From NCBI RefSeq assembly GCF_963506605.1, contig NC_083277.1, positions 55,056,001-55,120,000 on the forward strand: a stretch of DNA of 64,000 bases, given 5' to 3'. The stretch's first letter is position 1. Every line of letters starts with the position of its first letter. A program made the position numbers. Origin of the DNA: Zootoca vivipara (taxonomy: Eukaryota). Shown in pieces: positions 32,801 to 35,163 of this stretch.

Positions 32801-35163
32801 AGGCAAGTTACTCCTCCTCGCTAGGCCACTAACTGTCATGCTAACTTCCCTCTGGCCTCCATTCCCTCCTTTTCCTCCAAATTCCATTCTGGAAATTCAG
32901 GCCTACCTCTTTCCTTCGATCACTGTTGTCCTTCTGGAGCAGCCATTTGATGGTGGCCTGAGGGGAGCGAGGCTGGCACTCCAGAAAGGCTGTGCTTCCC
33001 TCCACTCCATACTGGACAGCCTCTACAGTGTTCTTGCTGGCTGGAGGTGGATACATAGATACAAGATTATGATTTACCAAGGGTCCGTTTCAACTAATAC
33101 ATTCCCAGACAAAAAATATTCCAAGCAGCTCCTACTCCTTTGCCAGAAGGAGGCTAGTCTCACTACTGCCAAGTTTATATATTGTGTACACTTGGCTAAT
33201 CTGCCATCCATCATTCAGCATGTGGACCATTCGTGTTCCAGTTCTGGGTGCAGCCTGTGTTGCGTATTTAGCAGATTAATTGCACTGCAGAAAGCGTGCT
33301 GGGGAAACCACACGTTCAGGAAACAATGAAGATATGCAAAAATATCCTTTGCTTGGCTTTAATTACAAAAACAAAAACTCCTCTTACATTAAATCTAGAA
33401 GTATGACCCATTCACCAGGGTACTGAGAGAGGTACACACTGCTTTTTATATTTGTTGTTTAGTCATTTAGTCATGTCCGACTCTTCGTGACCCCATGGAC
33501 CATAGCACGCCAGGCACTCCTGTCTTGCACTGCCTCCCGCAGTTTGGTCAGACTCATGTTCGTAGCTTCGAGAACACTGTCCAACCATCTTGTTCTCTGA
33601 CGTCCCCTTCTCCTAGTGCCCTCAATCTTTCCCAACATCAGGGTCTTTTCCAAGGATTCTTCTCTTCTCATGAGGTGGCCAAAGTATTGGAGCCTCAGCT
33701 TCACGATCTGTCCCTCCCTGGAAGGGACAGTGTTCTCGAAGCTACGAACATGAGTTTGACCAAACTGCGGGAGGCAGTGCAAGACAGGAGTGCCTGGCGT
33801 GCTATGGTCCATGGGGTCACGAAGAGTCGGACACGACTAAACGACTAAACAACAAAACAGCTTTTTATATACTATACCCAATTGCTGACACGGCTTAATT
33901 AACACGACAACAGCACCTGCTTCACAGCTGTAAAACTAGGTCATGAAATTTACTCTGGCCTTTAAAGAGATACACATCTTGTGAAATAATAATGAACCTT
34001 AACATTTAAGTAACCCATTCAAAAGCCTGACCATGTGATTGAGGCATTTGACTGAGTTGGATGACTTATGTAAGAAATGAACTAAAGGAACAGTCTCCCT
34101 TGGGAGGTTGTGGACTCTCCTTCCTTGGAGGTTTTTAAGCAGAGGTTGGATGGCCATCTGTCATGGATGCTTTAGTTGCAATTCCTGCATTGTAGGGCTT
34201 GGACTAGATGACCACTGGGGTACCTTCCAGCTCTACAATTCTATGATTCTATGAAAACAAAGAGGTGCAATAGTACTGGTCCTAATTCTTCAATCATGCC
34301 TCTTCATTTGCCCAGGGACAGCCACCCACCAGTGAAAAAAATGGCCATCCAGTCCATGGCTACTCTACTTTATGTGCCAAGGAAGTCCATATTCTGCACC
34401 ACATTGTGTACTCAAAAGTACCAGTTTGTTCACCTACTCCACTGATCAAAAATCATGGTGTGAAGGGCAGCTCTGTGCTACAATCAGTTTTGCAAACTGA
34501 AAAAGCAGAGCCAGTTGTTGTTTTTAAAGCAGACCTTCCATCTCAACACCCTCACTACACTTTTTCTGTGGGGATGGAGAGGTGAGATGGGACCACAAGA
34601 CCAAGAAGAATGCTACTTCTGATCCCCCCATGCAGTGGGTGAGTGTGATACTCACCATTAGAATTGTAACCTCTACATTGACGGATGGGGTTGCCATGCC
34701 GGACATCCTGACGCCTGCTCCGCCTGTGATAAGGAAAGAAGCAGCCAGGTAAGTGGTTGGAATTTTGGTCCTTCCAAGGAGCAGGATGATGAGCCATTCA
34801 TAATCCTTTTGTTTTTCTGACCAGCCCTTGACCAGTGAATCCTAGATTAATTCTGAGTCAACTATGGAAGATTCAAATTCCTGCCCAAAATCCATTTCAT
34901 GTTTTGGACCAATCATACTCTTTACCATTACCCAGATGCACTGCCTAGAATTCATTCAACAGAACTTTTTCCTGCATTTTTCCTAGGACACTGTATGATG
35001 CAAACCTTCCTTAGCTCACCTCTGAATTCCCCTTTATATCAATAGAACTAGTTTCCTAGAATATTCCCTCTAAAGTTAACCCCAAGGCACTCTCAGAACT
35101 CTTGAAAATAACCCGCTTTGAACAATGACCCCCCCCCCCCAGTAATTCTTTTAAGTCCCTTTA

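What the first reader, a model, noticed from the sequence alone, without database searches (positions are those of the whole stretch)
33441..33870. Two-tailed BovB insertion: one retrotransposition event with LINE 3' ends at both termini
Seen: a direct repeat GCTTTTTATAT (33441-33451 / 33860-33870) flanks about 270 bp of BovB 3' end on the minus strand, joined to 131 bp of the same 3' end on the plus strand. The arms (33452-33582 / 33725-33855) differ at only 3 positions, 2 of them CpG decay. The junction is itself a mini-hairpin (CTGTCCCTCCC-T-GGAAGGGACAG, 33708-33730), and the right arm starts at a second CTGTCC microhomology. Established: classic twin priming inverts an internal 5' segment and does not duplicate the tail. 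Inference: either the nascent cDNA folded back and jumped by microhomology to copy itself back to the tail, or both target nicks primed TPRT on two RNAs. The product mimics a MITE with LINE-derived TIRs.
Basis: partly seen in the sequence, partly recalled or inferred. Interest (0 to 1): 0.7.

Follow-up and report, generated by a model that had tools for sequence, protein, structure and literature searches.

The report
Two-tailed Bov-B LINE insertion
A short, truncated copy of the Bov-B jumping gene carries the element's tail at both ends, which most likely records one insertion event in which the newly made DNA turned back and copied itself; it is a rare by-product, not a new kind of element.

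Summary
An exact 11-bp direct repeat (33441-51 / 33860-70) flanks 267 nt of Bov-B 3' end on the minus strand (33452-33718), joined to 131 nt of the same 3' end on the plus strand (33725-33855). The arms match at 128 of 131 positions.

New here: 33718-33730 is a 13-nt sense copy of the exact Bov-B position where the long arm stops. So the centre is a true turn-round. The right arm lacks 131 nt of the mirror image, lost between two CTGTCC/GGACAG repeats.

Both arms share two amino-acid variants that are rare in relatives. All three arm differences are derived in the left arm. The long arm sits at a canonical Bov-B T|A nick.

Best reading (about 0.8): one retrotransposition event. The most likely route (0.5) is cDNA snap-back synthesis with a microhomology slip, as seen experimentally for R2. 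The main rival (about 0.22) is priming at both nicks, called dual priming.

I could not test the empty orthologous site, genome-wide copies of the junction or read support, because no eukaryotic genome collection was available. The case is a new variant of known aberrant TPRT products, of moderate interest.

The parts
33441..33451 (.). Left copy of the 11-bp target-site duplication, GCTTTTTATAT
   Evidence: It is exact and occurs only twice in the window.
33452..33718 (-). Long arm: 5'-truncated Bov-B (RTE clade). It holds the last about 84 codons of ORF2, the stop codon, the 3' UTR and a CAACAA tail. The tail abuts the left duplication copy.
   Evidence: translation. (tblastn: P0024 residues 912-998 match 33722-33462 at 92%). 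(P. muralis DNA consensus fixes the 5' end at about 33717/33718).
33452..33582 (-). Left inverted-repeat arm, the part of the long arm that is mirrored on the right
   Evidence: 128 of 131 match the right arm. It carries all three derived differences.
33577..33582 (+). Distal CTGTCC, the landing site of the 131-nt skip. Its complement, GGACAG, opens the right arm.
33583..33717 (-). Unpaired part of the long arm. It has no mirror image on the right and forms the loop of the potential cruciform.
33708..33730 (.). Centre of the palindrome, the turn-round. CTGTCCCTCCC and GGAAGGGACAG are separated by a single T.
   Evidence: I4: 10 of 11 pairs. (each side matches the Bov-B consensus on opposite strands, and both carry the same extra G/C).
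33718..33730 (+). 13-nt sense-strand piece, CTGGAAGGGACAG. It equals the Bov-B consensus CTGGAAGGACAG plus one G, and comes from the same element position where the long arm ends.
   Evidence: P. muralis alignment rows read ...actggaaggacagatcgtg.... (unique in the window).
33725..33855 (+). Right arm: the last 131 nt of Bov-B in sense orientation, ending in CAACAA
   Evidence: P0024 residues 959-998 match at 95%. It keeps the consensus state at all three differing sites.
33856..33859 (+). AACA: four extra bases between the right tail and the duplication. They are either untemplated junction bases or a longer tail.
33860..33870 (.). Right copy of the 11-bp target-site duplication

Best explanation
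One Bov-B retrotransposition event produced the whole structure.

1. Shown or consistent: the element's endonuclease nicked the plus strand between TATAT and ACTAT. This is the canonical T|A Bov-B site when read on the minus strand.
2. Shown or consistent: reverse transcription from the CAACAA tail made a 267-nt first-strand cDNA, the long arm.
3. Inferred: at its 3' end the cDNA turned back on itself and copied about 13 nt of itself (33718-33730).
4. Inferred: the nascent GGACAG end slipped from the proximal CTGTCC (33708) to the distal CTGTCC (33577), skipping 131 nt.
5. Inferred: synthesis then copied the cDNA back to its tail and stopped where the cDNA meets the still-duplex target.
6. Inferred: four extra bases (AACA) were added. 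The end was joined to the other side of the staggered break, and fill-in gave the 11-bp duplication.

The product is a truncated LINE with its 3' tail at both ends. It is inert. It can form a 131-bp hairpin or cruciform.
For: Single event:
- One exact 11-bp duplication encloses both arms, and nothing resembling a second duplication lies between them.
- Eleven bp fits Bov-B. In PMC13295347 the element starts about 12 nt after the nick (Figure 4 legend).
- Read on the minus strand, the site is TAGT|ATATAAAAAGC, with TT at -10/-11. That matches the published Tn-TA signature (a T-run upstream, then a T|A nick): T|A, with T's about 10 nt upstream.

Arms are sisters:
- Both encode AVQDR and RAMVH. 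The motifs AVQDR and RAMVH occur in 0 of 120 and 1 of 120 listed database relatives.
- In the P. muralis supplement text, the Q codon string occurs once against 207 for the consensus. The M string occurs once, in a non-Bov-B context, against 398.
- Mean divergence of P. muralis copies from a representative copy is 9.7%. The arms differ by 2.3%.

Turn-round:
- 33699-33717 matches the antisense consensus. 33718-33730 matches the sense consensus of the same site, 12 of 12 bases plus one extra G that both sides share.
- So the two strands stop within about 2 nt of each other.

Slip: 6-nt microhomology lies at exactly the two positions needed.

Precedent:
- For R2 proteins in human cells, a 'snap-back' class of 5' junctions is described. 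[quoted passage not shown]
- Short fold-back inversions are also reported at somatic L1 insertions (PMC10191854, passage).

Timing: both ends of the duplicated segment coincide with physical cDNA ends. This argues for formation during integration, not later.
Against: - The centre has almost no loop (one unpaired T). The sense piece reaches 1-2 nt further than the antisense arm. A simple hairpin primer should leave a loop of a few bases and cannot hold sequence that the cDNA lacks.
- The right tail is followed by AACA, not by a copy of the left flank. Snap-back must therefore stop exactly at the cDNA/target boundary. That is plausible if the upstream target was still duplex, but it is not shown.
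- AACA could equally be part of a longer (CAA)n-like tail primed independently.
- All three arm differences sit in the left arm. With n = 3 this is not significant.
- No other locus, empty site or sequencing read was examined.
Confidence: 0.5

Rival explanations
1. Dual priming. After the first nick primed the long arm, the 3'-OH of the second, minus-strand nick (...AAAAAGC-3') also primed reverse transcription at a Bov-B RNA tail. The template was a second RNA or the same RNA used again. Both cDNAs ran to the same point, either a short RNA's 5' end or the stalled first enzyme, and were joined there. The 131-nt gap arose by a template slip or by a later deletion.
For: - Each target 3'-OH is joined directly to the complement of a Bov-B tail.
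- The two tails differ in length: CAACAA versus CAACAAAACA.
- The duplication is intact.
- The centre is nearly loop-free, as expected for end-to-end joining or a template jump.
- The mechanism was proposed for L1 as 'dual priming' (PMC2837659, sections 10-11 read).
Against: - Two independent cDNAs would have to stop within about 2 nt of each other. For independent truncation this is roughly a 1% coincidence (my estimate), unless a discrete short RNA or a chase-and-jump is assumed.
- A separate 131-nt slip is also needed.
- The second nick site reads T|G, or C|A with the 14-nt repeat. It is not the T|A signature.
- Both arms carry the same rare variants, so two different source elements are excluded.
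Confidence: 0.22
2. The locus is one copy of a propagating, non-autonomous hairpin family. An RNA with a Bov-B tail at its 3' end and the inverted tail at its 5' end would be mobilised by Bov-B like a SINE.
For: - A transcript of the minus strand would end in the authentic long-arm tail and could be recognised by the Bov-B enzyme.
- The duplication and the T|A site fit such an insertion equally well.
- The window lies inside or near a transcribed gene region.
Against: - No second copy of any Bov-B tail is in the 64 kb: 2 of 2 matches are the arms themselves.
- No ORF spanning a like junction appeared among 120 listed hits to the junction-spanning ORF. All 120 were of the ruminant type.
- An RNA with a 131-bp perfect stem would be a poor template.
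- The off-centre deletion and the turn-round look like a one-off accident.
- None of these is a real test.
Confidence: 0.08
3. Two independent Bov-B insertions landed head to head at the same spot.
For: Bov-B is abundant in lacertid genomes and most copies are short (PMC13295347, section 3.1). Head-to-head Bov-B pieces are not rare in database ORFs: 22 of 235 in a biased sample.
Against: - There is only one duplication pair, and none between the arms.
- The truncation points coincide within about 2 nt.
- The arms differ by 2.3%, against about 9.7% mean divergence from a representative copy.
- The arms share rare variants.
Confidence: 0.04
4. A later event or an artefact: a replication template switch that made an inverted duplication of an ordinary insertion, or an assembly or read chimera.
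For: Palindromes arise by fork template switching. Inverted chimeras are a known sequencing artefact (recalled, not from a call).
Against: - The duplicated segment starts exactly at the element's 5' junction and ends exactly at its tail.
- The flanks are unique and are not mirrored.
- The duplication is direct.
- The arms differ at 3 sites and are unequal in length. Artefactual palindromes are normally perfect.
Confidence: 0.06

Closest known systems
cDNA snap-back 5' junctions of R2-mediated insertions (PRINT; PMC11371274, passages and the Extended Data Fig. 7 legend seen)
   Same: [quoted passage not shown] Antisense element sequence is then joined to the target.
   Different: That case is R2 (a site-specific, restriction-like endonuclease) in transfected human cells. 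This case is Bov-B (RTE clade, AP-type endonuclease) fixed in a germ line. Here the copy ran all the way back to the tail, so both termini are element 3' ends inside one duplication. I saw no statement of such full run-back in the passages read.
Dual priming, proposed for L1 (Meyer et al. 2010, PMC2837659, sections 10-11 read)
   Same: The element's 3' end lies at both target nicks, in inverted orientation, inside target-site duplications.
   Different: In the L1 loci only a poly(T) stretch marked the second priming, so unique tail sequence could not prove it. Here 131 nt of unique tail are present on both sides. However, the coincident truncation points and the turn-round copy fit dual priming poorly.
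Twin priming of L1 (Ostertag and Kazazian 2001, as described in PMC2837659 and PMC2912911, passages)
   Same: There is one event. The second target end takes part. The inverted segments lie inside one duplication, with microhomology at the internal junction.
   Different: Twin priming inverts an upstream, non-overlapping 5' segment of the same RNA. Here the two segments overlap completely, and the tail is duplicated.
Inverted 5'-truncated copies of Penelope-like elements (Craig et al. 2021, PMC8557442, passages)
   Same: A truncated inverted copy lies next to the 5' end, giving inverted repeats that flank the unit.
   Different: These are a different retroelement class, with a GIY-YIG endonuclease. 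There the arrangement is the rule, and that paper says it is not observed in TPRT of non-LTR elements. Here it is a single LINE locus.
MITEs
   Same: Short, non-coding, with terminal inverted repeats and a flanking duplication.
   Different: The 'TIRs' are LINE tails made by reverse transcription. The 11-bp duplication is the Bov-B size. No transposase site and no family are known.

Membership tests
Bov-B LINE (RTE clade), 5'-truncated copy | Homology to the Bov-B ORF2 C-terminus and 3' UTR | tested here: met
   92% over 87 aa and 95% over 40 aa to the P. muralis ORF2 P0024. 7,941 database relatives at E <= 1e-5.
Bov-B LINE (RTE clade), 5'-truncated copy | (CAA)n microsatellite-like 3' end | tested here: met
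   Both arms end in CAACAA. Reptile Bov-B tails are (CAA)2-6 (PMC13295347, Table 4).
Bov-B LINE (RTE clade), 5'-truncated copy | Tn-TA insertion signature: the duplication starts with A after T, with TTT about 10 nt upstream | tested here: met
   For the long arm the minus strand reads TAGT|ATAT..., with TT (not TTT) at -10/-11. For the right arm it is not met (T|G).
Sauria SINE | (ACCTTT)n tail, duplication starting with T, and only the extreme Bov-B 3' end shared | tested here: not met
   The tails are CAACAA. Both arms contain ORF2 coding sequence.
Classic twin priming product | The inverted segment is an upstream, non-overlapping part of the same RNA | tested here: not met
   The right arm is the same last 131 nt as the left arm.
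Dual priming product | The element's 3' end is joined to both nick-derived 3'-OH ends inside one duplication | tested here: met
Dual priming product | Two independent cDNAs: independent truncation points, and possibly different source RNAs | tested here: not met
   The truncation points coincide within about 2 nt. The arms share rare variants.
cDNA snap-back junction | [quoted passage not shown] | tested here: met
   33718-33730 and 33725-33855 mirror 33708-33718 and 33452-33582.
cDNA snap-back junction | Priming at an internal cDNA position through short complementarity | tested here: met
   GGACAG at 33725 pairs with CTGTCC at 33577 and at 33708.
cDNA snap-back junction | Made during integration by the element's enzyme | not testable with these tools
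   This needs an assay or polymorphism data.
MITE | A multi-copy family with the same terminal inverted repeats | not testable with these tools
   No eukaryotic genome collection was available. There is only one copy in the 64 kb.

The most novel reading that the evidence does not exclude
Two-tailed Bov-B insertions are not a one-off. They would be a recurrent output of RTE-clade integration. Either the enzyme complex can start reverse transcription at both nicks, which is the dual priming that was proposed but never proven for L1, or snap-back copies regularly run to the tail. Such palindromes would then supply long hairpin RNAs or seed MITE-like families in squamate and ruminant genomes.

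There are hints. Five of 22 tails-outward database ORFs join the two orientations directly. One of them (P0176, of the ruminant type) has a symmetric turn-round at a different element position.
Probability: 0.2. Interest if true: 0.65.

Novelty: new variant of a known kind. Interest (0 to 1): 0.4.

Why it matters
How a LINE insertion is finished is the least understood part of retrotransposition: second-strand cleavage, 5' junction formation and second-strand synthesis. This locus is a natural, germ-line 'fossil' of an aberrant finish in an RTE-clade element. Both ends of the intermediate are preserved at base resolution: the canonical nick, the turn-round, a 6-nt slip, four extra bases and an 11-bp duplication.

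If such loci are collected genome-wide, their junction statistics could separate snap-back from dual priming without any assay. The practical points are minor. The product is a 131-bp inverted repeat inside a gene region, so it is a potential cruciform or double-stranded-RNA source. Repeat annotators could also mistake it for a MITE or for two insertions.

Tried and rejected
- **Other copies in the window.** None were found. blastn with the 273-nt piece and tblastn with P0024 hit only the two arms.
- **Prokaryote genome collection.** This was the only DNA collection open. An exact 22-mer from the right arm gave 0 hits. A 26-nt motif with two wildcards gave 4 contaminant contigs with ruminant-type repeats. 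Of these, 0 of 4 held an inverted pair. This is uninformative about lizards.
- **Protein database with the junction-spanning plus-strand ORF**. All 120 listed hits were ruminant-type antisense ORFs. No lacertid junction copy appeared. This is weak, because the database holds few six-frame ORFs of lizard genomes.
- **Search with P0176**, followed by classification of 235 ORFs. The result is suggestive only. The sample is biased, no DNA was available, and nested insertions or assembly hairpins are not excluded.
- **Supplement text counts**. Motifs of 12 nt or more mostly returned zero because the alignment is broken by gaps and line ends. Only the 9-nt counts are usable. They are string counts, not copy counts.
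- **Naming the neighbouring exon.** Pfam, PDB and Atlas showed only a weak Ig-domain signal.
- **Bacterial promoter/terminator scan**. It is irrelevant to a eukaryotic locus.
- **Literature.** One search (BovB + twin priming) found 1 paper, which says nothing on inverted tails. Searches gave the L1, R2 and PLE precedents cited. None listed a paper that I recognised, from title or abstract, as describing a two-tailed RTE or Bov-B insertion. PMC12016303 had no matching passage.
- **Two search calls failed on term syntax** and were re-sent in corrected form.
- **Considered and rejected:** Sauria SINE, classic twin priming, two independent insertions and an artefactual palindrome. The reasons are given under Rival explanations and Membership tests.

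Full report
**Observation**

- An exact 11-bp direct repeat, GCTTTTTATAT, lies at 33441-33451 and 33860-33870. These are its only two occurrences in the 64 kb. The chance of an exact match at one register is about 5.7e-7, using the flank composition.
- Just inside the repeat copies are inverted arms at 33452-33582 and 33725-33855, with 128 of 131 positions complementary. They are separated by 142 nt.
- The three differences are transitions at 33465/33842, 33473/33834 and 33551/33756. The first two are CpG on the right versus TpG on the left.
- The junction hairpin (33708-18 / 33720-30, 10 of 11 pairs) and the two CTGTCC copies (33577, 33708) with GGACAG at 33725 are present.
- As single-stranded DNA the 430 nt fold at -179.9 kcal/mol. 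Shuffles give -49.9 +/- 4.1, and 0 of 100 shuffles fold as well.
- The window holds no N.

**What it is**

The minus strand of 33452-33725 translates without a stop to the C-terminus of a Bov-B ORF2, followed by a stop codon and a CAACAA tail. The sequence reads ...EGQIVKLRLQYFGHLMRRE...HGVTKSRT.
- A length-extended protein search gave 7,941 relatives at E <= 1e-5 among 8,000 scored.
- The best named relatives are from Podarcis muralis, P. lilfordi and Zootoca vivipara. So the window is probably from a lacertid lizard and is not human.
- Against the full-length P. muralis ORF2 (P0024, 998 aa), the window has only two matches. Residues 912-998 match 33722-33462 at 92%. Residues 959-998 match 33726-33845 at 95%.
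- blastn with the 273-nt piece also hits only the two arms.
- The tails are the LINE type, (CAA)n, not the Sauria SINE type, (ACCTTT)n (PMC13295347, Table 4). Both arms contain coding sequence. This is LINE on both sides.

**The centre is a true turn-round**

The supplement of PMC13295347 (FigS3 text, passages only) gives the P. muralis DNA consensus at the site where the long arm ends...tcactggaaggacagatcgtgaag...
- Against this consensus, plus-strand 33699-33717 is the antisense strand.
- Plus-strand 33718-33730 (CTGGAAGGGACAG) is the sense strand of the same site. It matches 12 of 12 bases, plus one extra G that the antisense side also carries (CTGTCCC).
- So the right half does not simply start at -131. 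It starts with 13 nt copied from the very point where the long arm stops.
- It then continues at the second GGACAG, 131 nt further down the element.
- In other words, the structure is a mirror image of the 267-nt long arm, from which 131 nt have been skipped between two 6-nt repeats.
- The two strands stop within about 2 nt of each other.

**The arms are sisters**

Both arms encode AVQDR and RAMVH, where relatives have AVEDR and RALVH.
- Among the 120 listed hits, AVQDR occurs in 0 and RAMVH in 1. AVEDR occurs in 16 and RALVH in 13.
- In the P. muralis supplement text, the Q-codon string occurs once against 207 for the consensus. The M-codon string occurs once, in a non-Bov-B context, against 398. 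These are string counts, affected by gaps and line ends.
- P. muralis copies differ from a representative copy by 9.7 +/- 3.7% on average (Table 2). The arms differ by 2.3%.
- At all three differing sites the right arm holds the state seen in relatives...ACACGACTAAACGAC... (T R L N D) and ATGAGTTTG. The third site is polymorphic in the family, 93 against 161 strings.
- The window's species may not be P. muralis, so 'rare' is relative to the data I could see.

**The target site**

Nakatsuka and Ohshima (PMC13295347; Results and section 4.1 read) report this signature for reptile Bov-B. The duplication starts with A preceded by T, with a run of T about 10 nt upstream, and the element begins about 12 nt after the nick.
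- Read on the minus strand, the site here is TAGT|ATATAAAAAGC, with TT at -10/-11. So the long arm sits at a canonical first-strand nick.
- The 11-bp duplication is the normal size.
- The right arm is attached to the other nick, which reads T|G and is not canonical.
- The right tail is followed by AACA before the duplication. The left tail is not.

**Mechanism**

The evidence points to one event.
- There is one duplication pair and none between the arms.
- The arms share rare variants.
- The truncation points coincide.
- The duplicated segment begins at the cDNA's 3' end and ends at its 5' end, the tail. This points to the integration intermediate, not to a later rearrangement.

I put about 0.8 on 'one event'. 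Within it, two routes remain.

(a) **Snap-back (0.5).**
- The first cDNA's 3' end turned back and copied about 13 nt.
- It slipped from the proximal to the distal CTGTCC.
- It copied the cDNA back to the tail and ran off where the cDNA meets duplex target.
- It received four extra bases and was joined as a normal 5' junction.
- This route needs one process. It has a direct precedent: a 'snap-back' class of 5' junctions in R2-protein-mediated insertion in human cells. There the cDNA 3' end primes synthesis complementary to the cDNA at internal positions (PMC11371274, passages and one figure legend).
- Its weak points are the almost loop-free centre and the exact stop at the tail.

(b) **Dual priming (0.22).**
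- The second nick also primed on a Bov-B tail.
- This was proposed for L1 by Meyer et al. (PMC2837659, sections 10-11).
- It is supported by opposite-orientation two-RNA insertions in L1 models (PMC11702581, section 7).
- It explains the outer ends and the loop-free centre well.
- It needs two cDNAs to stop at the same base, plus a separate 131-nt slip.

Smaller rivals are a copy of a hairpin family (0.08), two independent insertions (0.04), and a later duplication or an artefact (0.06).

**Age (inference)**

The arms show three differences in 131 nt, two of them at CpG. I derived a rate from Table 2 of PMC13295347, where 1.4% corresponds to 9 million years. On that rate the event is of the order of a few million years old. 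This is an order-of-magnitude figure only.

**Hints of recurrence (weak)**

I classified 235 database ORFs (P0121-P0355). They came from two searches that were biased towards sequences holding both orientations. Nearly all are of the ruminant type and come from unnamed short contigs.
- 111 hold both an antisense and a sense Bov-B C-terminal match.
- 90 are sense then antisense (tails inward).
- 22 are antisense then sense (tails outward).
- One ORF falls in both classes.
- Of the 22, five join the two orientations directly: P0176, P0259, P0248, P0266 and P0312.
- One of these (P0176) turns round symmetrically, at a different element position, about 200 nt from the tail.
- I had no DNA for these ORFs. 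Nested insertions and assembler hairpins are not excluded.

**Comparison with known kinds**

- The locus is a member of Bov-B/RTE.
- It is not a classic twin-priming product, because the segments overlap fully.
- It meets the structural definition of a snap-back junction.
- It meets only part of the dual-priming definition.
- It resembles the inverted truncated copies that are routine for Penelope-like elements. Craig et al. say these are not observed in non-LTR TPRT (PMC8557442, passages).
- It resembles a MITE in shape only.

My searches listed no paper that I recognised, from title or abstract, as describing a two-tailed RTE or Bov-B insertion. That is not proof that none exists.

**What stayed unchecked**

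- No eukaryotic genome, read set or orthologous locus was available.
- bioRxiv supplements were closed. These include Fig. S7 of PMC11702581 and the supplementary figures of 10.1101/2024.08.27.596794. They may show L1 cases closer to this one.
- Only one ORF of the neighbouring gene was searched, on its own.

**Verdict**

The feature is real, correctly described and well explained as one aberrant Bov-B integration. It is a new variant of known aberrant TPRT outcomes. Interest is 0.4.

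Noticed in passing
window 31415-31849 (minus strand): A 144-aa open frame with a weak immunoglobulin-domain signal. Pfam Ig_2 gives E 6e-4, below the cut-off. PDB contactin Ig domains give E 2e-6. Atlas shows I-set clusters at 0.89. From recall, untested, it looks like the C-terminal exon of a class-3 semaphorin. 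If so, the Bov-B palindrome lies about 1.6 kb upstream of it on the same strand, probably in an intron.
   Followed up: partly
protein P0001 (unnamed ena contig, 168 aa), and 16 of the 120 hits: Some Bov-B C-terminal ORFs carry the QYFG segment twice in the same orientation. P0001, of the lizard type and 85% identical to the window, restarts at RLQYFGH directly after ...REAVEDR. This looks like a direct duplication made by a template switch. It would be another aberrant reverse-transcription product of the same element region.
   Followed up: no
proteins P0176, P0259, P0248, P0266, P0312: These ruminant-type ORFs read the Bov-B tail antisense and then, with no spacer, sense (tails outward). 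P0176 turns round within about 1-2 codons of the same element position. These may be further two-tailed insertions. Nested insertions and assembly hairpins are not excluded.
   Followed up: partly
loci L001-L004: Four short contigs filed under bacterial genomes carry same-strand repeats with a ruminant-type Bov-A/Bov-B tail motif. The genomes are Novosphingobium lubricantis, Aureimonas endophytica, Paenibacillus sp. and Phaeospirillum tilakii. This is most likely animal DNA contamination of those assemblies.
   Followed up: partly
database ORFs: In the biased sample, tails-inward pairs (sense then antisense, 90 ORFs) outnumber tails-outward pairs (22 ORFs). Spacers range from 0 to 100 aa. This may reflect insertion of Bov-B-type elements next to existing tails, or merely which frames stay open.
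   Followed up: no
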